Of a DNA stretch of 64,000 nucleotides, positions 13,200 to 60,720 are shown piece by piece. Within the stretch, counting starts at the first letter, position 1. Every line of letters starts with the position of its first letter. This DNA is from Cyanidioschyzon merolae (taxonomy: Eukaryota), in assembly GCA_000091205.1 (NCBI GenBank), contig AP006490.2. One strand, given 5' to 3'. The notes under the pieces were generated by a model, which worked only from the letters and a program-made list of their open reading frames with translations, ran no database searches and was not told the DNA's origin. Both the position numbers and the translations under genes were made by a program.

Positions 13200-13725
13200 T
13201 GCATGATTTCAAATGCTTTTTCGCGGTTTATAGCAGATGCGTTCCAAGTGCGTGCATTTTGAAGAAATAATTATCTAATGAAAAGGCATGGAGATGGAAG
13301 GCGGGGGATCCTAGAGGGCCGGTGTCATCGGGGGCCGGAAAAGTAACGAAAAGAAATCCACTTCTCGCCGGCCAACGAGCGACAAAGAGCAAGGAATGAA
13401 GAAGAAGAAAGAGAAGCGGCGCGAGAGACGGGAATGTATTGGTACACAGGGCACGAGGTCCCGGCATCCTTGTAATGGTGCGTTCCATCAGCGGCAAGAA
13501 ACGGATGGAGTTCGTGAACCAAGACTTCAACGCAGTCATCAAAATCAGACGGTGTGCAGTGCTGAAGAGAAGAGACTCGAGGAACTGACGCAATCCAATT
13601 TTGCGGGGTTACCTTTCAGAGTCGAAGTGTACAACGAGAAACTCAAGCCGATAGCAGCCGGCCGGTCAAACAAGACTGGGAGGCGTCTGCGGGTGCGTAT
13701 GTGTATATACCCTCCATGGTCGTGA
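13200..13725 (+). mobile_element. Internally deleted (MITE-like) derivative of the TnpB/Fanzor-like element: about 250 bp of the 5' region fused to about 270 bp of the 3' terminus
   Basis: 13205-13290 'gctttttcgcggtttatagcagatgcgtt...' matches the copy at 27600-27700 ('gctttttcgcggtttagagcagagacgtt...'), with weaker homology to about 13450. 13455-13720 then encodes '...MEFVNQDFNAVIKIRRCAVL...VEVYNEKLKPIAAGRSNKTGRRLRV'. This matches the element C-terminus and its 'ggccggtc...gggaggcgtctgc' 3' module. Confidence 0.6.
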
Positions 13726-20152: not shown

Positions 20153-20810
20153 GACGTTCCCGGCAAACGGTCCTGAACTGCAAGATGCAACGCATCAACG
20201 ACGAGGCGGCGTTGAGCGCGCCAGCTCGGTTGGCGGAATAATCTGTCAAAGAGAGGTTGCTGCACTGGTCGGGCGCATGCATTTGCGCGATGATCTCTGA
20301 TGATAAACATTTTGTTCGGCGAAGCGTACGGAATACAAGTTTCCTGACGATGATTAGGGGAGCGAAAATTTCGCTACTGCATGGTTCATACAGCTGAGAC
20401 CCAGCATGGTCACCATTCAATACTTGTTTGCAGCATACCCATGTTGATCGTGGCATGCAGCAGGCTTTCATTACCGAAGCTGACTTTTCAACATACGAGT
20501 AGCCGCCCAAAAGTGACAGGTAGTCCCAGCAGCACGATGCTACGGAGCTCGTTGAGGATGCACTGCGAGCAAACCGCCCAGCAGCGCTCTTTTGCACGTA
20601 CCGTAACTTGCAGGCGTATGCGATGACCAAAGTGATTTGGATGGCGTGCGTTGTTGCCTGACAAGAAGCTCGACTGTTCACGGAGGCGTCGCAGACCCGT
20701 CGTCGTTCACAAGATGTATGCACACGTACGAGCACAGTGTCCATCGCTATTCGATTTCTACGCATGCTGCTGAACAGGAATGCATGCATCCGAGCACACG
20801 CATCGATTCG

Positions 20811-20882
<72 letters not shown>
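20811..20882. repeat. (TGCG)n microsatellite, about 18 units
   Basis: 'tgcgtgcgtgcg...' run. It produces the (THAR)n and (ACVR)n artefact ORFs around it. Confidence 0.95.
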
Positions 20883-20883
<1 letters not shown>

Positions 20884-21335
20884 GGTTTCAAGCAGACTGC
20901 GACTTTTGCACGAACGACGAGTGAAGGTCGTTGTCGCATATGCTGTAAGCGTGTCTGCACGGTTCGGGAGTGGAATGCTGACAGACGCAGATTTATTGCG
21001 CTTAACGTTGCGGTTAGGTTTCTTCGTCTGGATCTGCGTCGTTCTTTACGTTTTTCTCGCGGTACCTCTTCCGTCAAAGCAAACAAGCGAGGCCAAGGGT
21101 CGTGCAGTGACTCTCGCAAGTGCGGCAGGCCCAGCGAGCTCGCGAGACAAGTCTGGGCGGCGCTGACGCTCCTGTTCTAGGTGAACGGTTACAGCATACT
21201 GAGCTAACGCTTGCTCTTTGATATACTAGGACGGATCAGTACTGTGTCCGAGGCGGTGCGGAGATAGGTCGACGAGTATCTGCAGACTCGCGTATCCACC
21301 GGAATACTCCTGAGACGGCCACAAAATATTTCGTC

Positions 21336-22004: not shown

Positions 22005-22685
22005 TTGGGGGAAGGTGCGTGGGATCGTCGAGACGTTTCGCTGGAAAGCGCCCATTTGGTCTGTATGAGGCGTTTGCGCACTGCTCGTCCGCCCATAACT
22101 CCGCCATGGCTTTCTCCAGTGAATCCTTTGACGCCAGCCTCCAAGCGCGGCCAAGTTAGAACGGGATAGCCTCCTGGTCCAATGGACAGGATTATCGCGG
22201 GACAATGCTCGACTGTCTCCGTGTTGTTCGTTTGCAGGAATGTAGGTGATCGAGGCAGACACCCAGTTGTGCTCGCTCTATTGGAAACAGAGGTTTCGAT
22301 TACGTGCTCGGTTTCGCTCTGTCCAGAGCTGCGAAAGATCCACGACGGCCGCGGCTGCTATGGTGCGTACAGTGTCTGCGATCGTCAGAATACGTAAAAA
22401 TCAGGGTGCGGAAAGATTGCTGGAAACGTTTTCTGGCGTCATAGCGCCTATGAGACCCCTTTTCCCTGGGAGTCGAGCGACAAGCGGTGGCGCGTTCCCT
22501 TGGCTGTCTATCGGACAAGGAAGATAGGTTGAAAGCAAGTCTCGAGCATGACGGTAAAGGGGACGTATATGTTCAAGTGCTCAAGAGCTTTCTCGGCTGT
22601 AAGGCTATAGCACTATTGCCACGTGCACGGTGGACTTTTAGCGGGTAGTGAAAGTAGGTGAAGCGACTTGGCTTCTGACAAAAGG

Positions 22686-22821
22686 TTGCCATCGCGCGGG
22701 ATCGAACCGCGGACCTTTGCATCGCTCGACCGATTGCTGACGATCGTTGCGAGTGCCTTCAGTGCAACGCTTTCGGGCGAGCATCGAATGATGACTCCTC
22801 TCCCTGCTGAGCTACAATGGC
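22686..22821 (-). tRNA. tRNA-Phe(GAA)-like gene carrying intervening sequences: a canonical-position 34-nt intron after anticodon position 37, plus an extra roughly 28-nt insert 5' of the anticodon stem. It may be an unusually spliced tRNA or a pseudogene.
   Basis: The minus-strand read gives acceptor GCCATTG/CGATGGC (7 bp with one G-U), discriminator A and D-arm 'TAGCTCAGCAGGGAGAGG' (Phe-like). The anticodon stem TTGCA/TGCAA carries loop 'CTGAAG...A'. Variable loop is AGGTC and T-arm is CGCGG-TTCGATC-CCGCG. Confidence 0.5.
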
Positions 22822-23351
22822 AACATTCATGTGATATCGATTGCATAAATTGGATATAAAGGCTTGTTGGCGTCCGCTCCCACGCGCAGTTGGACAATCA
22901 TGACTTTAGCGTATATTTATGTATTAAACGGACACACTTCTCTGCATTCCGTTTTGCGGCTCTCCGCATGGGTGTCGATCACGGCTAGGCGAGCCCATTC
23001 CGAGCAACTAGGCGTCAATCGCTGGCGCTGCGACCCACGGACTGATAGGACGCGCTTTAGACAGAATGGCCCATTGTCTTGCTCCTAGCGCGCTGCGTGC
23101 CGCGTCTCCATACGCGTCGGACTCGTCGCGGCAACGTTGCGAAGACCCGTCGCCTCCGCGGCTGTTCGTTTTGTACACGGCAGAGCGGCGACTCGGTCCT
23201 GGACCATGCGCGTGATGCCTGTCGTCGCCCCGCAAAACGGCTGTCTCTCTAAGCGCTACACGTTTGCGCATTGTTTGCGTGTCGGCATGACGCGCAACTG
23301 GCAGAACAGCGCCGTATAGCACTCGCACAGACGCGAGCGTGGACAGAAAAG

Positions 23352-23422
23352 CAGGTACAGGCATAGGTACAGGCATAGGTACAGGCATAGGTACAGGCAT
23401 AGGTACAGGCATAGGTACAGGT
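23352..23422. repeat. 12-bp minisatellite (GTACAGGCATAG)n, about 6 units. The homologous site in the other palindrome arm (about 27105-27125) has about 2 units.
   Basis: 'gtacaggcataggtacaggcatag...' run. It generates the (PMPV)n and (YACT)n artefact ORFs. Confidence 0.9.
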
Positions 23423-23620
23423 GTGGGCTCCAGGTCGGCCCCGGAGAAGGAAGCGTGTGCAAGTACCATGGCGGCTAAAAATCGTTCGCAAAATATCACT
23501 TTATAGGCATCGAGGCTACGCATCAACGCACGGACGATCACTCACTCGCTTTCCATAGGTCGTATCCTTCCTCCATTGCATCCGGTCTTCCTTACATCAA
23601 GGCTTTCACCGCTCTCCGCT

Positions 23621-23914
23621 TTAGTTCCCCTGGAACTTTTCCTTGGTGGCATCTGCTGCGTGCTCTATTCCTTTCTTCGCAGACTGACCGGTTTCCTTCA
23701 GGTGATCCACTGCATCACCCGCCTTGTCTTGAGCTTTCTCCTGTGCGGACTTTTGCCCGGTGAGATCACGGAACTTGTCAGAGATCGTCTCCTTCGCCGA
23801 TGAAAACGCACCAGTGACAGACTCTTTCGCAGAATCCAAAGCGCCACCCGCTTTCTTCTCCGTATCTTTGAGAGCCGACTGTGCTGAGCTTGTATCTTGA
23901 GCTCCGGAAGACAT
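23621..23914 (-). CDS. Small hydrophilic stress-protein-like gene, copy A (97 aa; CsbD/LEA/Con-6-like, K/E/A/Q/G-rich)
   Basis: 'MSSGAQDTSSAQSALKDTEKKAGGALDSAKESVTGAFSSAKETISDKFRDLTGQKSAQEKAQDKAGDAVDHLKETGQSAKKGIEHAADATKEKFQGN*'. The paralog in the other arm has the same length and about 75% aa identity. The listed ORF 23621..24934 is a chance read-through from the upstream element. Confidence 0.6.
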   Translation of the reverse strand: MSSGAQDTSSAQSALKDTEKKAGGALDSAKESVTGAFSSAKETISDKFRDLTGQKSAQEKAQDKAGDAVDHLKETGQSAKKGIEHAADATKEKFQGN

Positions 23915-24040
23915 ATCACAATTTATAATGCTTTCGTAAACTCGAAAAATGCATATGCAAATGAGGTACCACGGCGCGCGCGGTGGCCGCACAGCCACAA
24001 ACACAGGAGATTTTACCGCAACAGGACCCGCACGCACCGC

Positions 24041-25320
24041 AGTTTGAAAGTCGAACGACGGCGGTGTACAGTAGCGGCGAACGATGCGCCCTAGACGACG
24101 TCTCCAACTGAGGTGCAGACGCCTCCCGGCCTTTTTGGACCGGCCACCCGCTACTGCTTCCAACTTTTTCTCAAATAATTCCACTTTGGGAGGTTGTCCA
24201 ATAACGTTCTCTCGTGGCAACTCTGGAGGTCTGCTCTCGAGCACCGCACATGTCGTTATCTTGATAGCGGCGTTAAAGTCTCGGTTCACAAACTCCATAC
24301 GTTCCGTGCCATCATTGGTTGTACTTACTAATGCAAGCAGTCCCCGAACTTTCGCCCTCCTTTCCATTTGCGCTTCCGTCAGCGGTCCGTACTTTGCTAT
24401 TCCCTCAGGGCTGCTCCGACACTTTTCTATCTCGACACTTTGAAGTGTACACCCCAGTTCATGGTGTGTATACGATGTTCGGAACTCATCTATCGATATC
24501 GTAACAAAACGTCGTGCACACTCTATGTACGTTCTCGTCGTTAGAGCTGGTGTACACCTTTTTTGGGTCTTCCAGCGCCCTGATCCGTACGCTACTACCA
24601 GCCTTTGGCTCTCGTCCTCCTTCAGGGCGTTCAACTCATTGAAAAAGTTCGCGAGCACGCGCTGCCTCCCACCGTATAGACTCATTCGCAGACGAGCCCA
24701 CCGGGGCTTTGTATACTCCTCCCGTAGCGCCTCCCGATGAGGAACACGAACTTCCATGACTTTCCGAGAAGCTTGAAAGTGTGCTCCGCGGCCCGTCACC
24801 TCGCTCAAAGCTTCCAGGTGATCCTTCATTCCTGCATCCCATGCAGGAATTTTCTTCCTCGCATTCATGACTCCCGATTCTCGATAGTATCTTGCTCTCG
24901 GGAACCTCAAAAGACGCATGTCTTTCTGACGCAAGGAACCGTCAGTACTATCTTCCGCACGCTACGCTGCGCGATGGTTATGATACTCGTATTCTCAGGG
25001 TCCGCGCCAACGACAAAGCCGTTATCTTGCACTTTCTGCACCGCAGGATCCGCCTCCTTCTCATCTTCATGCTGCACCACGTCAACGACAAAGTCGTTAT
25101 CCTGCACTTTCTGCGTCGCGGTACCCGCCTCCTTCTCATCTTCTTGCTGCGCCACGTCAACGACAAAGTAGTTATCCTGCACTTCCTGTGTGGCAGGATC
25201 CGCCTCTTTGTTTTCTGCATCCTTCGTCACGGGCGGAGCCGAGGGCGGAACTGGCCGATCTGTCTTCAACCGCCGATAGTGTACACACAAGGCTACTCCA
25301 TCGGTTTCGATCATCCCAGT
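24041..25320 (-). mobile_element. TnpB/Fanzor-like element, copy 1. The 3' about 1.3 kb is present; the 5' end is truncated at the palindrome centre. It carries a frameshift shared with copy 3 and has lost its stop codon (TGA to TGT).
   Basis: ORFs 24907..25326 (- '...VGADPENTSIITIA') and 23621..24934 (- 'MRQKDMRLLRF...MEFVNRDFNAAIKITTCAVLE...GRSKKAGRRLHLSWRRRLGRIVRRY'). About 98% identical to the 3' half of the 27.4-30.1 kb copy. Confidence 0.8.
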
Positions 25321-25372
25321 GAACAACTTTTGTTTGCTGACTTTGAGCCGTTCGAAACTGAAGATATTCTTC

Positions 25373-26572
25373 GTTGGGATGATCGAAACCGATGGAGCAG
25401 CCTTGTGTGTACACTATCGGCGGTTTCAGGCGGATCATCCAGCTCCGTCTTCGACTTCGCCGGGACGGAGCATGAAGCGAAGAAAGAGGCGGATCGTGCC
25501 ACGCAGAAAGTGCAGGATAAAGAATTTCCCATTGACGCTACGAAGCATGAAGATGAGATGGAGGCGGATACCGCGACGCAGGAGATGCAGGATAACGACT
25601 TTGTCGTTGGCGCGGACCCTTGGAACACGAATATCATTGGCATGGCTGTACCCAAGCGTGCGGAAGATGGTATCAACGACAGCCCATTTCAGAGAGACAT
25701 GCGTCTGTTGAGATTCTCGAGAGCAAGATACTACCTAGAATTGGGAATCATGAATGCAAGGAAGGAAATTGAGGCATGGAATGCGGAAGTGAAAGAGCAT
25801 CAGGAAGCTTTGAGCGAGGTGACAAGCCGAGGAGCGGGCTTTCAAGCTTTTCTGAAATTCATGGAAGTTCGCATTGCGCACTGGGATGCATTGTGGGAGG
25901 AGTATACAAAGCCCCGGTGGGCTCGTTTGCAAATGAATCTATACGTTGGGAAGCAGCGGGCCTTCGCGAGTTTTTTCAATCAGTTGAGTGCCCTGAAGGA
26001 GGATGAAAATCAGAGGCTCGTAGTAGCGTATAGAGCAGGGCGCTGGGCGCCCAAGAAAGGCACTACGCCAGCTCCAACGACGGGGGCGTACAAGGAGTGC
26101 GCACGGCGTTTCGTCGCGATACCGATAGATGAGTTCCGTTCGTCCTATACACTCCATGAACTGGGGTGTACACTTCAGAGAGTGGAGATGGAAAAGTGCC
26201 AACGGAGCCCTGAGGAAATAGCAAAGTACGGACCTCTGACGGAAGAGCAAATGGAAAGGAGGGCGAAACTTCGGGGGCTACTTGCATTAGTAAGTACAAC
26301 CAGTGATGGCAAGGAACGTATGGAGTTTTTAAACCGAGACTTTAACGTCGCTATCAATTTAAGGAGATGTGCGGTGCTGGAGACGAGACCTCCAGAGCTG
26401 ACAAGAGAGAACTTTGTTGGACAACCGCCCAAAGTAGAACTATATGAGAAAATATGGAATCAGTAGTAGGTGGCCGGTCCAAAAAGGCTGGGAGGCGTCT
26501 GCACGTCAGTGGGAGATGTTTCGTCTAGGGCGCGTGCTTCGCCACTATTGTACACCGTTGGCGTCGTTCGAG
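25373..26572 (+). mobile_element. TnpB/Fanzor-like element, copy 2. The 3' about 1.2 kb is present; this is an older, more diverged subfamily member and is in-frame through the RuvC-I region.
   Basis: ORF 24892..26466 from '[16 protein letters not shown]' onward reads '...DNDFVVGADPWNTNIIGMA...ERMEFLNRDFNVAINLRRCAVLETRPPELTRENFVGQPPKVELYEK'. About 80% aa identity to other copies. The 3' module 'ggtggccggtccaaaaaggctgggaggcgtctgcacgtcag...gtacaccgttggcgtcgttcga' is present. Confidence 0.75.
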
Positions 26573-26605
26573 TGCGAAAGGTGTTCCCTTAGCGTCGCAG
26601 TGACA

Positions 26606-26899
26606 ATGTCTTCTGGGTCGCAGGATACCTCTTCTGGTCAATCAGTTCTCAAAGATGCCGAGGCGAAGGTAGGCAGTGCATGGGAATCCACGAAGGAGTC
26701 AGTTTCTGAAGCGTTCACTTCGGCCAAGGAGACTATCTCTGACAAGTATCGTGATCTCACCGGCCAAAAGTCCGCGCAGGAGAAAGCCCAAGACAAGGCG
26801 AGCGAGGCGGTGGATCACCTAAAGGAAACCGGTCAGTCCGCGAAGGAGAGTTTGCAGCACGCTGCAGATGCAGCCTCGGAAAAGTTAAAGGACGGCTAA
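26606..26899 (+). CDS. Small hydrophilic stress-protein-like gene, copy B (97 aa)
   Basis: 'MSSGSQDTSSGQSVLKDAEAKVGSAWESTKESVSEAFTSAKETISDKYRDLTGQKSAQEKAQDKASEAVDHLKETGQSAKESLQHAADAASEKLKDG*'. Same length as copy A, intact ORF, and it begins about 35 bp after the copy-2 element terminus. Confidence 0.6.
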   Translation: MSSGSQDTSSGQSVLKDAEAKVGSAWESTKESVSEAFTSAKETISDKYRDLTGQKSAQEKAQDKASEAVDHLKETGQSAKESLQHAADAASEKLKDG

Positions 26900-27703
26900 C
26901 GGAGAGAGCGTAGAAAGACTTGAGTGAAGGATGCACGGAAGTAAAACAGGAAGGATACGACCTATGGACAGCGAGTGAGTGATCGTCCGTGCGTTGATGC
27001 GTAGCCTCGATGCCTATAAAGTGATGTTTTGCGAACGATTTTTAGCCGCCATGGTACTTGCACACGCGTCCCGCTCCGGGGCCGACCCGCAGCCCACACC
27101 TGTACCTATGCCTGTACCTGCTTTCCTGTCCACGCCCGCGTCTGTGTGAGTGCTATACGGCGCTGTTCTGCCAGTTGCGCGTCATGCCGACACCCAAACA
27201 ATGCGCAAACGTATAGCGCTTATAGAGAGATAGTTGTTCCGCGGGGCGAGCGCCCGCAATCGCAGTCGAGGGCACAATCGACTCGATCGCTGCCGCACGG
27301 GGCGCGACGCATCGCACGCTGTGGTGCAGCGCAGCGCGTACCGGCCTCTGGAAGCAAGTTGTGCGCAGCAGCGATCTGAGGCCTTTATCCATCGGTGCAG
27401 CGTCTCGCGCGGTGCACGCATCGCGCTCGGTGAGCGTACCCGGGAGATCAGGCAGATATGAGACACGACGCGCATGTCGCCGCTGAAGGGAAACGCGATC
27501 CTGACCATTCGTTGACGTGTTGTTCTAACGTAAAACTTGTATTTGCATTGGAATCGTAACAGAATATATTGTTTCATCTCAGTCGTGTTTCAACCTTCAA
27601 GTAAAAATACTCGAGCGCTTTTTCGCGGTTTAGAGCAGAGACGTTAATAGTGCGTTCTAAATCAAAAAAAAAAAACTAAAAAAGGAAAGTTCTGGACAGC
27701 GAA

Positions 27704-30068
27704 GTGGAGGACCCTGGAGGGTCAGTATCGCTGGCAGGCGAGAAAAAAGGAGCAAAAGAGCCAAACATAGAAGAACGAGACAAGACGAAGAAGCAGACGG
27801 GGGAGGTCCTACGTCAATGGCTGCAAGAAAGACGACAGTACGACGAGATGGAGGTGAAAACCTGTCTTCTCGGCTATAGCAAGGATTCGTAGAAGAAAAA
27901 ATTGCGAGAGTCCATCAGAAACTGTGACGAGTCGGACTCCATGAGTTTTCGTAAGACTTCTTTAGGAATGATGCATCTAGCGAGGGAGATGTATCGCGAC
28001 GTGACGCACATGGAAACAGTCGATGTTCCAGAAAAATTTTGCAACAGGAACTTTATTCTTCACCTGATGCTTGGTACAGGGGAAACATCGAGGAGAAATG
28101 AGCGGGTTCACGCCCTCCACGAAAACTTCGCGGAATTCCGCTTCGAGGGTACTCGGTACAGAGGTGACTCGAATATTTACATATACGGGGCGATGAAGTA
28201 CCTCACGAATCTGAAGAACCATTTGACAGTGAACCTTGAACGTTTCATGAGACGCTCGGTGTTTGCACTCTACCGGGGCATCTCTCGCACAGGAATACGG
28301 GCGATTACCAATGGCATCACCAACGAGCACCAGAATGAAGATGAAGTCGAATTTGTCGACAAGAAGGCGTCAAACGAGCGCACGAATGAAGCCTCTGTAA
28401 TCCGTGCGGTTATACAAGAGCGCCGTGCAATCTTGGGGTTGGCGGATCCAATAGACAAGATACCAGAGTTGAAAAAAAATATAAGGAAAGACACTATCGC
28501 CTCATCCTGCGATATTTCGTGTTTTTGCACCGAGAGCCCGAACGCAGTGCGCAGATGAAGCCGAGTGAGGAAAAAATATGAAGAGTGGGAGAGACGGAAA
28601 GCTTTCCTAATGGGGAAGCGCTTCAACGTCGTTCCAATGTGCAGCATCAAGTCACATTTTGTGACTGTCGACCCAACGTACGTTACAGCAAATTGAAGGA
28701 GATCTGTCCGGAGTTCAATGTAAGGAAGACAGAGTTCGCCGGTGAAAACCGGGAGACGTACTGGAAGAACATCTTCAATTTCAAACGGCTCAAAGTCAGC
28801 AAACAAAAGTTGTTCACTGGGATGATCGAAACCGATGGAGTAGCCTTGTGTGTACACTATCGGCGGTTGAAGACAGATCGGCCAGTTCCGCCCTCGGCTC
28901 CGCCCGTGACGAAGGATGCAGAAAACAAAGAGGCGGATCCTGCCACACAGGAAGTGCAGGATAACGACCTTGTCTTGACGTGGAGCAGCATGAAGATGAG
29001 AAGGAGGCGGATACCGCGACGCAGAAAGTGCAGGATAACGACTTTGTCGTTGACGTGGTGCAGCATGAAGATGAGAAGGAGGCGGATCCTGCGGTGCAGA
29101 AAGTGCAAGATAACGGCTTTGTTGCTGGCGCGGACCCCGGGAATACGAATATCATCACCATCGCAGCACCGAGGCGTGCGGAAGATGGTACTGACGGTTC
29201 CTTGCGTCAGAAAGACATGGGTCTTTTGAGGTTCCGGAGAGCAAGATACTATCGAGAATCGGGAGTCATGAATGCGAGGAAGAAAATTCCTGCATGGGAT
29301 GCAGGAATGAAGGATCACCTGGAAGCTTTGAGCGAGGTGACGGGCCGCGGAGCACACTTTCAAGCTTCTCGGAAAGTCATGGAAGTTCGTGTTCCTCATC
29401 GGGAGGCGCTACGGGAGGAGTATACAAAGCCCCGGTGGGCTCGTCTGCGAATGAGTCTATACGGTGGGAGGCAGCGCGTGCTCGCGAACTTTTTCAATGA
29501 GTTGAACGCCCTGAAGGAGGACGAGAGCCAAAGGCTGGTAGTAGCGTACGGATCAGGGCGCTGGAAGACCCAAAAAAGGTGTACACCAGCTCTAACGACG
29601 AGAACGTACATAGAGTGTGCACGACGTTTTGTTACGATATCGATAGATGAGTTCCGAACATCGTATACACACCATGAACTGGGGTGTACACTTCAAAGTG
29701 TCGAGATAGAAAAGTGCCAGAGCAGCCCTGAGGGAATAGCAAAGTACGGACCGCTGACGGAAGCGCAAATGGAAAGGAGGGCGAAAGTTCGGGGACTGCT
29801 TGCATTAGTAAGTACAACCAATGATGGCACGGAACGTATGGAGTTTGTGAACCGAGACTTTAACGCCGCTATCAAGATAACGACATGTGCGGTGCTCGAG
29901 AGCAGACCTCCAGAGTTGCCACGAGAGAACGTTATTGGACAACCTCCCAAAGTGGAGTTATTTGAGAAAAAGTTGGAGGCAGTAGCGGGTGGCCGGTCCA
30001 AAAAGGCCGGGAGGCGTCTGCACCTCAGTTGGAGACGTCGTCTAGGGCGCATCGTTCGCCGCTACTGA
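27704..30068 (+). pseudogene. TnpB/Fanzor-like RuvC-family protein gene, disrupted (in-frame stop SKDS*; about 1-bp deletions near 28667 and 28960; a possible 100-nt GT..AG intron at 28530-28629)
   Basis: Reconstructed order: N-terminal '...MYRDVTHMETVDVPEKF...' is followed by a WED-like '...[36 protein letters not shown]'. An acidic 25-aa repeat of about three units precedes 'GADPGNT' (RuvC-I D). Next come '...LVVAYGSGRW' (RuvC-II position, Glu apparently replaced), a degenerate Zn-ribbon 'TSYTHHELGC...C', then 'NRDFNAAIKI' (RuvC-III D). Compare the TnpB consensus RDxNAAxNIxRRG. Confidence 0.7.
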
Positions 30069-30075
30069 ACCACTG
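29930..30075 (+). ncRNA. Candidate omegaRNA-like conserved 3'-terminal module, overlapping the ORF's last about 45 codons and ending at the element terminus
   Basis: A single string is conserved in all copies and in both solo fragments: 'ggtggccggtccaaaaaggccgggaggcgtctgcacctcagttggagacgtcgtctagggcgcatcgttcgccgctactg(tacaccgccgtcgttcgacttt)'. Short hairpins are visible: GGCC...GGCC, GAGG...CCTC, CGTCT...AGACG. By analogy, the TnpB/Fanzor guide RNA scaffold is encoded at the 3' end of the ORF and the right end. Confidence 0.3.
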
Positions 30076-34959: not shown

Positions 34960-35300
34960 CGCTATGATGAGCGAAGCACCCGTTGTACGCAGTTTTGCTG
35001 CGTCGTTCCGTGCAGGCCTCTGACGCACCTGTTTGCGTAGCAGCGGTCAAACGTGGAACGTCAGCAGACGAAAACTGCCCTGACGCATCGATTATACGCA
35101 GTTTTGCTGCGTCGTTCCGTGCAGGCCTCTGACGCACCTGTTTGCATAGCAGCGGTCAAACGTGGAACGTCAGCAGACGAAAACTGCCCTGACGCATCCA
35201 TTGTACGCAGTTTTGCTGCGTCGTTCCGTGCAGGCCTCTGACGCACCTGTTTGCATAGCAGCGGTCAAACGTGGAACGTCAGCAAACGAAAACTGCCCAG
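34960..35300. repeat. Tandem repeat of a 109-bp unit, about 3.2 copies. Each unit is bounded by an inverted repeat (GCAGTTTTGCTG...CAGACGAAAACTGC).
   Basis: Units start at 34989, 35098 and 35207 and are about 97% identical. The repeat generates the repeated 'RSFAASFRAGL' and 'MRQRPARNDAAKLR' artefact ORFs. Confidence 0.9.
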
Positions 35301-43732: not shown

Positions 43733-46046
43733 AACGCCGCTCTAAAGTCGAACGACGTCGGGCGTGTACAGTAGTGGCAGCAACCGCGCCCTCGACAAGA
43801 CGTCTCCAACTGACGCGCAGACGCCTCCCCGTCTTATTGGACCGGCCACCGATTACTGCTTCCAACTTTTTCTCATATAGTTCCACTTTGAGAGGTTGCC
43901 GCACAAAATTCTCTCTTGTCAGCGCTGGAGGTCTTCTTTCCAGCACCGCACATCTCCTGATATTGATAGTGGCATTAAAGTCTCGATTCACAAACTCCAT
44001 ACGCCTCTTGCCATCATTGGTTGTACTTACTAGTGCAAGTGGCCCTCACACTTTTGCCCTCCTTTCCATTTGCTCCTCCGTCAGCGGTCTATACTTCTTT
44101 ACATCTTCAGGGCTCCTCTGGCACTTTTCCATCTCGACCCTCTGAAGTGTACAACCCAGCTCGTGGTGTGTATAAGATGTTCGGAACTCATCTATCGGTA
44201 TTGTAACGAAACGCCGTGCGCACTCCTTGTACACCCTCGTCGTTGGAGCTGGCGTAGCTCCTTTCTTGGGCGCTCAGCGCCCTGCTCCGTACGCTACTAC
44301 CAGCCTTTGGCTCTCGTCCTCCTTCAGGGCGTTCAACTCATTGAAAAAGTTCGCGAGCACGCGCTGCCTCCCACCGTATAGACTCATTCGCAGACGAGCC
44401 CGCCGGGGCTTTGTATACTCCTCCCGTAGCGCCTCCCGATGAGGAACACGAACTTCCATGACTTTCCGAGAAGCTTGAAAGTGTGCTCCGCGGCCCGTCA
44501 CCTCGCTCAAAGCTTCCAGGTGATCCTTCATTCCTGCATCCCATGCAGGAATTTTCTTCCTCGCATTCATGACTCCCGATTCTCGATAGTATCTTGCTCT
44601 CGGGAACCTCAAAAGACGCATGTCTTTCTGACGCAAGGAACCGTCAGTACTATCTTCCGCACGCTACGCTGCGCGATGGTTATGATACTCGTATTCTCAG
44701 GGTCCGCGCCAACGACAAAGTCGTTACCCTGCACTTTCTGCGTCGCAGGACCCGCCTCCTTCTCATCTTCCTGCTTCACCGCGTCAACGACAAGATCGTT
44801 ATCCTCCACCTCCTGCGTCGCAGGATCCGCCGCTTTGTTTTCTGCATCCTTCGTCACGGGCGAAGCCGAGAGCGGGACTGAACGATCTTTCTTCAACCGC
44901 CGATAGTGTACACACAAGGCTACTCCATCGGTTTCGATCAACCCAGTGAATACCTTTTGTTTGCTCATTTTGAGCCGTTTGAAATTGAAGATGTTCTTCC
45001 AGTACGTCTCCAGGTTTTCACCGATGAACTCTTCCCTGTTAACATCGAACTCGGGAATGATCTCCCTCATGATGCCATAAAGGATTCTGGAGTCGATAGT
45101 CACAAAATGTGACTTGAAGTTGCACAACGGAACGACACTGAAGCGCTTACCCACTAGGGCAGCCTTCCGTCTCTCCCACTCTTCATTTTTCTCTCACTCA
45201 GCTTCATCTCTGCCTTGCGTTTGAGTTCTCGGTCCAAAATCACGAAATACCGCAGGACGAGGCGATAGTATCTTTCCTTATCTTTTTCAACTCTGATATC
45301 TTTTCTGTTGGATTAACCAACCCCAGTACCGCACGATGCTCTTGTATAACCGCGCGGATGACGGAATCCTCATTCGTGCTCTTGTTTGACGCCTTCTTGT
45401 CGACGACTTCGACCTCATCTTCATGCTTACGATCTTTCGTGATGCCATTGATAATCGCCCATTTTCCATTGCGAGATAGGCTCTGGTAGAGTGCAACCAC
45501 GGCGCGTATCATGAAACGTTCGAGGTTCGCTGTCAAATGGTTTTTCAGATTCGTGAGGTACTTCATCGCCCCATATGTGTAAATATCCCCGTCACCCTTG
45601 TATCGAGTACCATTGAAGCTGTAAAAGGGATGTTTTTCGTGGAGGGCATGCATTCGCTCGTTTTCCCTCCGCGCTTCCCCTGTAACAAGCATCAGCTGAC
45701 GAATAAAGGTCATGTCGAAAAACTCGTCCGGAATTTCGACTGTTTCCATATGCGTCACGTCGCGATACATCTACCTCGCCAAATGCATCAGTCCTGACGA
45801 CGCCTTGACAATACTCTCGGAGTCTGACGCAACACGTTTTTCGATAGCGTCTCGCAACGTTTCCCTGTTGGGATCCTTGATATGTTTAAGAAGACAGCCT
45901 TTAACCACCATCTCGTCGTACAGTTGTCTTTTTTGCCGGCTTCGACGTAGGACCTCACCTTTTGCTTCTTTTTCTCTTCCTTTTCTTCTGGAATCGGCAC
46001 TGTTTTTTGTTTTTTTTTCTGGCAGCCGGCGACACTGGGCCTCCAA
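43575..46046 (-). pseudogene. TnpB/Fanzor-like protein gene of copy 3, disrupted
   Basis: Same domain order as the 27.7-30.1 kb gene. The N-terminal half is about 75% aa identical to that copy and the C-terminal half about 98%. Confidence 0.7.
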
Positions 46047-46345
46047 GATCGTGGACTTGCTTTTTCATATCTTTCCTTTTTTTGTTTTTTTTGAAAAGGA
46101 ACGCTCTTTGGACGCTTGTGGTATATGCTGCGAAAAAACACTTGACTAGACTTGTTTGAAGTTTTAAACAAAAATGAGCTGAAAGACTGTACTTTGCTAC
46201 GAACTGAACGGAAATCCAACTTTTTACAGCTGAACAACACGCTTCTGATCGAGATCACGTTTCCCTTCAACGGCGAGATACATGTCGTGTCTCATGTCTG
46301 CCTGATCTCCCAGGTGCGCTCACCGATCGATGAAGGTCACGTGTC
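43745..46345 (-). mobile_element. TnpB/Fanzor-like element, copy 3. Near full length, minus strand. It carries a nonsense mutation (E to stop before MYRDVTH), the frameshift shared with copy 1, and others.
   Basis: Minus-strand ORF pieces 45771..46046, 45240..45770, 44609..45154, 44274..44636, 44046..44234 (other frame) and 43575..44000. The last reads 'MEFVNRDFNATINIRRCAVLERRPPALTRENFVRQPLKVELYEKKLEAVIGGRSNKTGRRLRVSWRR'. The 3' terminus is '...ctactgtacacgcccgacgtcgttcgacttt'. Confidence 0.8.
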
Positions 46346-60489: not shown

Positions 60490-60720
60490 ATAGGGCATCG
60501 AGTTGGCCTCGAAATGCGATCGTGAAAAGTCGTGAGACGTGTCGGCAAACGCTGTGGCGCCAGCGTAGCACGCGTGGTGACGAGAGCGAACCTAGTGGGG
60601 CAACCGCTCCTGATCGAGGTGTGCCAGGAGAAGCTGAAACCGATAGCATGCGGTCGGTCGAAAAACAAAAGGCTGGGAGGCGTCTCCATGTCGGTGCAGA
60701 GACGTGCACTCTATGGGTGT
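60490..60720 (+). mobile_element. Solo 3'-terminal fragment of the TnpB/Fanzor-like element, more diverged, lying 115-345 bp downstream of the CIA30-domain gene stop
   Basis: It encodes '...RANLVGQPLLIEVCQEKLKPIACGRSKNKRLGGVSMSVQRR', matching the element's '...RENVIGQPPKVELFEKKLEAVAGGRSKKAGRRLHLSWRRR'. DNA 'ggtcggtcgaaaaacaaaaggctgggaggcgtctcc' matches the 3' module 'ggccggtccaaaaaggccgggaggcgtctgc'. Confidence 0.6.

What the first reader, a model, noticed from the sequence alone, without database searches (positions are those of the whole stretch)
23070..27350. A roughly 4.3-kb palindromic (head-to-head) inverted duplication built around two 5'-truncated element copies
The two arms are reverse complements around a 52-bp unique centre at 25321-25372. 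Each arm holds a TnpB/Fanzor-like copy truncated at the same internal point ('...[11 protein letters not shown]|' and '|GMIETDG...'). Each arm also holds a small-protein gene and about 700 bp of shared flank. Arm identity drops from near-identical next to the centre to about 70% at the edges. The two element arms belong to different subfamilies (about 80% aa identity). The minisatellite differs between arms, about 6 units against about 2. This looks like a fold-back or hairpin-mediated duplication, or repeated gene conversion. Palindromes of this size tend to be unstable and can drive rearrangement.
Basis: seen in the sequence. Interest (0 to 1): 0.6.

Follow-up and report, generated by a model that had tools for sequence, protein, structure and literature searches.

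The report
Old inverted duplication carrying Fanzor remnants
This is a real but ancient and stable head-to-head duplication in a hot-spring red alga that copied the tail of a Fanzor transposon together with a small stress-protein gene; it is an ordinary kind of rearrangement, not a fragile palindrome or an assembly error.

Summary
The inverted duplication is real. Its arms are 23225-25326 and 25367-27249, separated by a 40-nt loop. Two independent metagenome contigs cross the centre. Each arm holds three things: the 3' 1.2-1.3 kb of a Fanzor1 element, an intact 97-aa LEA-like gene, and about 350 bp of downstream DNA.

- The "52-bp unique centre" is just the extra 5' end of the left element copy. 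It is 94% identical to the full-length copy at 28764-28815.
- Arm identity does not fall from the centre outwards. It is 71-85% near the centre, 62% at the element/gene spacer, and 92-97% in the outermost 300 bp.
- The structure is not young or fragile. The two small genes have dS of about 1 and dN/dS of 0.16.

Cyanidiococcus yangmingshanensis and a second relative have, at the syntenic locus, one copy of the small gene on the minus strand and no Fanzor. The left arm therefore keeps the ancestral orientation, and the right arm is the derived copy.

The best explanation is an old fold-back or template-switch inverted duplication, followed by patchy gene conversion. The left remnant is 98% identical to the neighbouring full copy, and the outer flanks were homogenised between arms. 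This is a known kind of event and of moderate interest.

The parts
23225..25326 (-). Left arm of the inverted duplication. It keeps the ancestral orientation.
   Evidence: Inverted-repeat pairs I1, I2, I9, I10, I13, I18 and I19. BLAST. Sharp outer end at 23225. The outgroups have their single small gene on this strand.
25367..27249 (+). Right arm of the inverted duplication. This is the derived, inverted copy.
   Evidence: The outer end at 27249/27250 is inferred to be the second (novel) junction, because the outgroups have no plus-strand copy of the small gene.
25327..25366 (.). 40-nt unpaired loop between the arms. It is part of left copy A, not unique DNA.
   Evidence: Pair I10. Homology of 25321-25372 to C 28764-28815 and to D.
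25367..25372 (.). A|B junction. The hexamer TTCTTC can be assigned both to the 5' end of A (reverse complement GAAGAA, 6/6) and to the start of B (TTGTTC in C, 5/6). It is complementary 5/6 to GAACAA at 25321-25326. This is junctional microhomology at the base of the loop.
   Evidence: Sequence read directly and alignment A1. The same junction is present in L019 and L020.
24047..25372 (-). Copy A: a 5'-truncated Fanzor1 element remnant. It is 97.7% identical to C 28764-30070 and has a frameshift at about 24971.
25373..26571 (+). Copy B: a 5'-truncated Fanzor1 element remnant of a different lineage. It is about 82% identical to A, C and D, and frameshifted.
23621..23914 (-). F': an intact 97-aa LEA-like small-protein gene in the ancestral position. 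It is the faster-evolving paralogue.
   Evidence: Pfam gives only weak or faint LEA/apolipoprotein-like hits.
26606..26899 (+). F: an intact 97-aa LEA-like small-protein gene. This is the derived copy and is closer to the outgroup orthologues.
23225..23590 (-). O': the segment downstream of F'. It is 92-97% identical to its partner 26930-27249 and contains a 12-nt minisatellite at 23353-23421 (5.8 units).
26930..27249 (+). O: the segment downstream of F, with 2 units of the 12-nt repeat at 27099-27122. It is inferred to be an inter-arm gene-conversion tract that stops about 30 nt short of the homology boundary.
27424..30070 (+). Copy C: a full-length but frameshifted Fanzor1 element, 175 bp beyond the right arm and 63 bp upstream of the CysRS start codon. 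It is the gene-conversion partner of A.
   Evidence: The C-CysRS junction is present in six other contigs.
43744..46329 (-). Copy D: a full-length degenerate Fanzor1 element. It shares a 99-100% identical tract of about 300 bp with A and C, inside sequence that is otherwise 80-90% identical.

Best explanation
The window is nuclear DNA of an uncultured cyanidiophycean red alga.

Ancestral state. The locus read NUDIX(+), a split tRNA-like gene, one LEA-like small gene F on the minus strand, then CysRS(+). There was no transposon.

Proposed history in this lineage:
1. A Fanzor1 element (the CMe-1A kind: about 2.65 kb, no terminal inverted repeats) sat just upstream of F, in the same orientation.
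2. A break or a stalled fork inside that element led to fold-back priming or a template switch. The exposed 3' end, ...TTCTTC, paired with GAACAA 40 nt back on the same strand and copied outward through the element's 3' 1.2 kb, through F, and through about 350 bp beyond it.
3. The new end was then joined at 27249/27250.

The result is element-remnant/F pairs lying head to head and transcribed away from the centre.

Later changes. Both F copies were kept as working genes. The intervening DNA diverged strongly. Gene conversion then overwrote parts of the structure. The left remnant A and the neighbouring full copy C became about 98% identical. A, C and the distant copy D share a near-identical 300-bp tract. 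The outer flanks were homogenised between the arms to 92-97%.

Shown versus inferred. Shown: the anatomy, the ancestral single-copy state, selection on both genes, and the mosaic identity. Inferred: the fold-back step, the order of events, and the direction of the conversions.
For: Host. CysRS is 70-71% identical to Cyanidiococcus yangmingshanensis and a close relative, and more distant from other red algae.

Anatomy and junction. The junction is reproduced in independent contigs.

The element is Fanzor1.
- A profile of 65 family members hits solved Fanzor1 structures: Parasitella 3.8e-21, Spizellomyces 2.5e-14, Guillardia 1.1e-7.
- The RuvC motifs [15 protein letters not shown] and NRDFNAA are present.
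- C. merolae CMe-1A is described as about 3 kb, with no TIRs and copies about 80% identical to the consensus (PMC3627910).

Ancestral state. In the syntenic loci L025 (C. yangmingshanensis, GCA_013995675.1) and L026/L027, tblastn finds one F on the minus strand between NUDIX or PolE-B and CysRS, and no Fanzor. F and F' share 7 states and an indel against both outgroups.

Both genes are functional and old. Both are 97 codons with no indels, dN/dS 0.16 and dS 1.05. F' is accelerated: at 12 sites F matches an outgroup and F' does not, against 2 sites the other way.

Near-symmetric truncation. The two truncation points are 46-52 bp apart in a 2.65-kb element. By my estimate an unrelated pair of breakpoints would land that close about 4% of the time.

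Gene conversion.
- A-C has dS 0.011, against A-B dS 0.41.
- A-C differences are 0.5% outside the 75-nt repeat. Three mismatches are packed into A's terminal 20 nt.
- A, C and D are 99-100% identical over about 300 bp.
- The outer flank is about 95% identical, falling to about 80% in the last 30 nt.

Mechanism precedent. Inverted duplications with short spacers and microhomology form by fold-back (PMC3907307, PMC10622511; listed).
Against: - The element remnants (A-B pS 0.31, dN/dS 0.33, long open frames) are much less diverged than the synonymous sites of F/F' (pS 0.57) and than the element-F spacer (62% identity with gaps). A single event therefore needs both remnants to have been refreshed later by conversion from other element copies.
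- The distance from the element end to the F start codon differs between arms, 133 bp against 35 bp.
- The microhomology is only 5/6 today. Because the arms have diverged, the original state cannot be read.
- No intermediate state (one element upstream of a single F) was found.
Confidence: 0.6

Rival explanations
1. Two-step palindrome. An older inverted duplication copied only the small gene and its surroundings. A Fanzor1 element entered one arm later and was copied into the other arm by arm-to-arm gene conversion. A 'centre-break' deletion at the palindrome's axis then trimmed both element copies almost symmetrically and produced the present junction.
For: F/F' are more diverged at synonymous sites (pS 0.57) than the element remnants (pS 0.31). 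The element-to-ATG distance differs between the arms. Arm-to-arm conversion is evident in the outer flank. Central deletions of palindromes are a known stabilising process (my own knowledge, not checked here).
Against: It needs more steps. The age difference is equally explained by conversion from other element copies, which is directly visible in the A-C and A/C-D tracts. No relative with the intermediate state was found.
Confidence: 0.2
2. Two independent insertions of 5'-truncated elements from different subfamilies, each upstream of one of two pre-existing inverted F paralogues, which happen to abut.
For: A and B belong to different lineages: 82% identity with dN/dS 0.33, meaning divergence accumulated under selection rather than in place. 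All four element copies in the window point their 3' end at the start of the next gene.
Against: It requires both copies to be truncated within about 50 bp of the same internal position and to be joined directly, with microhomology. Truncated insertions are not a known property of this element type. A's lineage identity is explained by conversion from C.
Confidence: 0.08
3. The small gene and its flank belong to a 3.6-kb mobile or circular unit (element + F + flank), and the arms are two copies of that larger unit rather than duplicated host DNA.
For: Contig L008 closes on itself (its first 123 nt equal its last 123 nt), giving a 3610-bp cycle of spacer, full element, F' and flank. L007, L023 and L024 join parts of this unit to Mito_carr, Arf and PsbQ genes.
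Against: F is a resident single-copy gene at the syntenic locus in two outgroup genomes that have no element there. Copies C and D lack F. The L008 cycle is what an assembly graph gives when A/C and the two outer flanks collapse. The 123-nt overlap suggests a MEGAHIT k=123 assembly, possibly of RNA (my inference). At both odd joins the window sequence continues with GT, like a splice donor, and both are followed by the same 12-mer, which points to chimeric or spliced RNA.
Confidence: 0.05
4. Assembly artefact: a chimeric or collapsed join at 25.32-25.37 kb.
For: None was found, beyond the general risk that repeats pose to assemblies.
Against: The arms are only about 82% identical, so reads place uniquely. 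The same junction is assembled in two other metagenomes, with strain-level SNPs.
Confidence: 0.02

Closest known systems
Fold-back (inverted) duplications formed by intrastrand priming or template switching at short inverted repeats (human germline cases, PMC3907307; DSB-induced in yeast, PMC10622511)
   Same: Two inverted arms abut around a short single-copy spacer (40 nt here). The bases at the junction can be assigned to both arms (5-6 bp). Outgroups show a single-copy ancestral state.
   Different: This one is small and interstitial, with arms of about 2 kb and a second junction at 27249/27250. There is no evidence of a terminal deletion or a dicentric intermediate. It is evolutionarily old, with arms now 62-97% identical. 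The mechanism is inferred from the scar, not observed.
Fanzor1 element family CMe-1A of Cyanidioschyzon merolae (Bao and Jurka 2013, PMC3627910)
   Same: Same algal class. The element is about 2.65-3 kb, encodes only a Fanzor1 protein, and has no terminal inverted repeats or detectable target duplications. Copies are about 80% identical yet show a purifying-selection signature.
   Different: All four window copies are broken. The protein carries a variable 25-aa tandem repeat just before the first RuvC motif.
Arm-to-arm and ectopic gene conversion in genomic palindromes and dispersed repeats (for example primate sex-chromosome palindromes; my own knowledge)
   Same: There are patches of near-identity bounded a few tens of nt inside the homology limits (outer flanks; A versus C).
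   Different: Conversion here is patchy, not arm-wide. Most of the arms are strongly diverged, and the coding parts of the two small genes have not been homogenised.

Membership tests
Fanzor1 (eukaryotic TnpB-like RNA-guided nuclease) | Significant sequence or profile similarity to experimentally characterised Fanzor1 proteins | tested here: met
   A profile of 65 relatives, searched against PDB sequences, hits Parasitella Fanzor1 (3.8e-21), Spizellomyces Fanzor1 (2.5e-14) and Guillardia Fanzor1 (1.1e-7). There were no other hits.
Fanzor1 (eukaryotic TnpB-like RNA-guided nuclease) | Split RuvC domain with the D...E...D catalytic motifs in order | tested here: met
   [15 protein letters not shown] and NRDFNAA are present in the translations of A, B, C and D and in the homologues. 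They align to the same motifs of Fanzor1. The family alignment has invariant D and E columns and a nearly invariant (at least 90%) D.
Fanzor1 (eukaryotic TnpB-like RNA-guided nuclease) | Pfam TnpB/Cas12f-type C-terminal (TNB / zinc-ribbon) domain | tested here: inconclusive
   No Pfam family hits the window ORFs or close homologues. One distant relative gives a sub-threshold PF07282 hit, E = 0.0023.
Fanzor1 (eukaryotic TnpB-like RNA-guided nuclease) | Structured guide RNA (omega RNA) encoded at the 3' end of the element | tested here: inconclusive
   The last ~110 nt are the best conserved part of the four copies. RNAalifold on six sequences gives only weak covariation, -0.19 kcal/mol.
Fanzor1 (eukaryotic TnpB-like RNA-guided nuclease) | Intact, potentially active gene in this window | tested here: not met
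   A and B lack the N-terminal half and are frameshifted. C has frameshifts and a stop. D is split into several ORFs.
Fold-back inverted duplication | Inverted arms directly abutting, with a short single-copy spacer | tested here: met
   The arms meet at 25326/25367 with a 40-nt loop.
Fold-back inverted duplication | Short inverted repeat or microhomology at the base of the spacer | tested here: inconclusive
   GAACAA (25321-25326) pairs with TTCTTC (25367-25372) at 5 of 6 positions. The hexamer can be assigned to both element copies. After about 18% arm divergence the original state cannot be recovered.
Fold-back inverted duplication | Single-copy ancestral state of the duplicated segment | tested here: met
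   There is one F gene on the minus strand, and no Fanzor, at the syntenic locus of C. yangmingshanensis and a second relative.
Unstable long perfect palindrome (cruciform-prone) | Near-identical arms with little or no spacer | tested here: not met
   The arms are 62-97% identical, about 80% overall, with a 40-nt loop. The centre is the same in three assemblies that differ by 1-1.5%.
LEA-like small hydrophilic protein (F/F') | Pfam LEA-family domain above threshold | tested here: inconclusive
   Only weak Apolipoprotein/DUF hits and a faint precomputed PF27970 LEA1_2_D7_KIN2 hit on a 62%-identical relative.

The most novel reading that the evidence does not exclude
The palindrome may be a natural scar of Fanzor activity. 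Under this reading, a Fanzor-associated double-strand break inside or next to the element triggered the fold-back that duplicated a neighbouring stress gene. The element's conserved 3' end would then have been retained in both arms, and repeatedly refreshed by conversion, because it now serves as the promoter or 5' leader of the two LEA-like genes. That would link RNA-guided transposon nucleases to host gene duplication and regulatory co-option in a streamlined eukaryotic genome.
Probability: 0.07. Interest if true: 0.65.

Novelty: new member of a known kind. Interest (0 to 1): 0.3.

Why it matters
This is a cleanly reconstructed example, with outgroup genomes giving the ancestral state, of how a transposon remnant and an adjacent host gene can be duplicated head to head in a very compact algal genome. 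It also shows how the result can persist: both gene copies stay under selection while gene conversion keeps rewriting the transposon parts. It warns against reading arm identity as age, because the most similar parts here are conversion tracts. Finally, it documents a Fanzor1 family in an uncultured cyanidiophyte. It does not reveal a new mechanism.

Tried and rejected
- Pfam scans of the element ORFs and of close and distant homologues gave no usable hit. A single-sequence search against PDB found nothing. Only the 65-member profile reached Fanzor1.
- ARAGORN found no tRNA in the window. Rfam at E<=1 gave only generic sub-threshold miRNA-hairpin matches at the palindrome centre, which simply reflect the inverted repeat.
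- I tested whether the 16 nt just beyond each element's 3' end (the position of a TnpB-type guide) matches the break site or any other place in the window. There were no matches beyond self.
- I tried to use contigs L007, L008, L023 and L024 as alternative architectures. I rejected them as unreliable, because they look like graph cycles or chimeric or spliced joins. The shared 12-mer after two of the joins is not enriched in the window.
- An exact-sequence look-up of the 151-aa right-arm ORF found nothing.
- I looked for terminal inverted repeats or target duplications at the ends of the full copies. None was seen.
- The upstream regions of F in the outgroups could not be aligned to either arm.
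- The omega-RNA covariation test was inconclusive.
- No paper in the library links Fanzor to Cyanidiophyceae beyond Bao and Jurka 2013.

Full report
**What is there.** A self-comparison of the region shows four copies of one ~2.65-kb repeat in the window:
- A, 24047-25372, minus strand
- B, 25373-26571, plus strand
- C, 27424-30070, plus strand, full length
- D, 43744-46329, minus strand, full length

A and B lie head to head. Beyond each of them comes a further inverted match, 23225-23914 against 27249-26606. The symmetric region is therefore 23225-27249, about 4.0 kb. The arms are 23225-25326 and 25367-27249, with 40 unpaired nucleotides between them (pair I10). The outer ends are sharp. Both arms finish with ...GCGGGGCGA, and nothing aligns beyond that. 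As single-stranded DNA, the central 296 nt would fold at -108 kcal/mol, z = -17.

**Is it an artefact?** No. I scanned JGI metagenome contigs for a 20-mer spanning the junction and found two contigs from other samples. L019 is colinear with the window from 25159 to 29368 at 98.9% identity. L020, part of an 88-kb contig, is colinear from 28984 back to 24308 at 98.5%. Both have the same centre, with one or two SNPs. Three further contigs run from the NUDIX gene into the left arm, and six contigs contain the C/CysRS junction. Because the arms are only about 82% identical, they cannot be collapsed by an assembler.

- The "52-bp unique centre" (25321-25372) is the 5' end of copy A. Read on the minus strand, it matches C 28764-28815 with 3 mismatches in 52, and it also matches D.
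- A therefore starts at C-equivalent 28764 and B at about 28810-28815. The truncation points are 46-52 bp apart, not identical.
- The hexamer TTCTTC (25367-25372) can be read as the end of A (GAAGAA, 6/6) or as the start of B (TTGTTC in C, 5/6). It is complementary 5/6 to GAACAA at 25321-25326. This amounts to microhomology at the foot of a 40-nt loop.
- The identity profile is not a decline from the centre. In 100-nt windows it is 71-85% near the centre, 77-92% in the rest of the element, 62% (with gaps) at the element/gene spacer, 70-89% in the small gene, and 92-97% in the outermost ~300 bp.
- The 12-nt minisatellite does differ between arms, 5.8 against 2 units. A 75-nt repeat inside the element also varies.

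**What the element is.**
- Host: CysRS is 70-71% identical to Cyanidiococcus yangmingshanensis and a close relative, so the host is an uncultured cyanidiophycean red alga.
- Pfam gives nothing for the element ORFs. Homologues are abundant: 1138 cluster representatives at E<=0.001.
- A profile built from 65 of them hits only Fanzor1 structures in the PDB: Parasitella 3.8e-21, Spizellomyces 2.5e-14, Guillardia 1.1e-7.
- The RuvC motifs [15 protein letters not shown] and NRDFNAA are present.
- Bao and Jurka described a Fanzor1 family, CMe-1A, in Cyanidioschyzon merolae. It is about 3 kb, has about 150 copies some 80% identical to the consensus, lacks TIRs, and has unknown transposition chemistry (PMC3627910). 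The element here fits that description. I saw no TIRs or target duplications at its ends.
- All four window copies are pseudogenes.

**The small gene.** Each arm has an intact 97-codon ORF (23914->23621 and 26606->26899) encoding a hydrophilic, weakly LEA-like protein. The two ORFs differ by no indels. They have dN/dS 0.16 and dS about 1.05. Both are therefore maintained genes, and the duplication is old.

**Ancestral state.** The syntenic regions of C. yangmingshanensis (GCA_013995675.1) and of a second relative keep the same gene order: Exo_endo_phos, PolE-B, NUDIX, CysRS, Inositol_P, CRT-like transporter. Between NUDIX and CysRS, tblastn finds a single F gene on the minus strand and no Fanzor sequence. 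F and F' share seven states and an indel against both outgroups, so the duplication followed the split. The left arm keeps the ancestral strand and neighbourhood. The right arm is the new, inverted copy, and 27249/27250 is the second junction. Oddly, the ancestral-position copy F' is the faster-evolving one: at 12 sites F matches an outgroup while F' differs, against 2 sites the other way.

**Gene conversion.**
- A and C are 97.7% identical over 1.3 kb (dS 0.011), while A-B, B-C and B-D are about 82% (dS 0.41-0.47).
- Outside the 75-nt repeat, A and C differ at about 0.5% of sites. Three mismatches are packed into A's terminal 20 nt. That is what a conversion tract stopping just inside the homology limit would leave.
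- A, C and D share a 99-100% identical stretch of about 300 bp within sequence that is otherwise 80-90% identical.
- The outer flanks are about 95% identical, falling to about 80% in the last 30 nt. This again looks like a tract that needs a homology anchor.
- A-B divergence has dN/dS 0.33. It therefore accumulated largely in selected element lineages rather than in place, which fits remnants being overwritten from other copies.

**Most likely history.** A Fanzor1 element lay upstream of the ancestral F. A break or fork collapse within it led to fold-back priming or a template switch at a short inverted repeat. The element's 3' part, F and about 350 bp beyond were copied in inverted orientation, and the end was rejoined at 27249/27250. 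Fold-back inverted duplications with short spacers and microhomology are well documented (PMC3907307, PMC10622511). By my estimate, unrelated breakpoints would fall this symmetrically only about 4% of the time.

The main difficulty is that the element remnants are younger-looking than F/F' (pS 0.31 against 0.57). I attribute this to later conversion. The alternative is a two-step history: F duplicated first, the element spread between arms later, and a central deletion followed. That history cannot be excluded, and I give it 0.2.

**What it is not.**
- It is not a young, fragile palindrome.
- It is not a mobile "element + F" unit. The contigs suggesting that (L007, L008, L023, L024) behave like graph cycles or chimeric or spliced joins, and F is a resident gene in the outgroups.
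- There is no sign that a guide-like sequence next to any element copy targets the break site.

**Verdict.** The structure is real, well supported and old. The kind of event is known, and the Fanzor family is known from a sister genus. Interest is moderate to low (0.3). It is best described as a new member of a known kind.

Noticed in passing
window 22685-22826 (minus strand): A block about 75% conserved across three cyanidiophyte species, lying in otherwise unalignable intergenic DNA. On the minus strand it reads like a tRNA split by intervening sequences: a 5' part GTTGCCATTGTAGCTCAGCAGGGAGA and a 3' part GGTCCGCGGTTCGATCCCGCGCGATGGCA. ARAGORN and Rfam both miss it. Cyanidioschyzon is known for highly disrupted tRNA genes (my own knowledge).
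   Followed up: partly
window 25002-25226, 25461-25605, 28905-29123; proteins P0007, P0011: The Fanzor1 ORF carries a 75-nt (25-aa, [20 protein letters not shown]-like) tandem repeat between the 'IETDG' segment and the first RuvC motif. It has 2-3 units in the window copies and more in some metagenome homologues.
   Followed up: partly
window 24047, 26571, 30070, 43744: All four element copies point their 3' end at the start codon of the next gene on the same strand, at distances of 133, 35, 63 and 374 bp. In A and in P0001, the Fanzor frame even runs on into the small gene as one ORF.
   Followed up: no
L007:3100, L023:979 (equivalent to window 23499 and 23688): Two contigs leave the F' region at different points, and both continue with the same 12-mer ATTTTTTTTCGC followed by the start codon of an unrelated gene (Mito_carr, Arf). 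At both points the window sequence continues with GT, like a splice donor. This could be chimeric or spliced RNA if these are metatranscriptome assemblies. It remains unexplained.
   Followed up: partly
L008 (3733 bp): The contig's first and last 123 nt are identical, giving a 3610-bp cycle of spacer, full element, F' and outer flank. This is most simply an assembly-graph cycle through the collapsed A/C and flank repeats. A tandem or circular form was not excluded.
   Followed up: partly
window 13448-13573 (+), with weaker similarity at 60578-60686: An isolated fragment of the Fanzor1 RuvC-III region. tblastn gives 60% identity over 43 aa, and blastn gives 75% to a fragment in contig L021.
   Followed up: no
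window 34973-35298: A repeat unit of about 110 bp differs in copy number or arrangement between the window and contigs L001 and L002 from other samples.
   Followed up: no
window about 20780-20900: A short tandem repeat, visible as runs of ...CVRACVRACVRA... and ...THARTHARTHAR... in the ORF translations on opposite strands, lies between the PolE-B and NUDIX genes.
   Followed up: no
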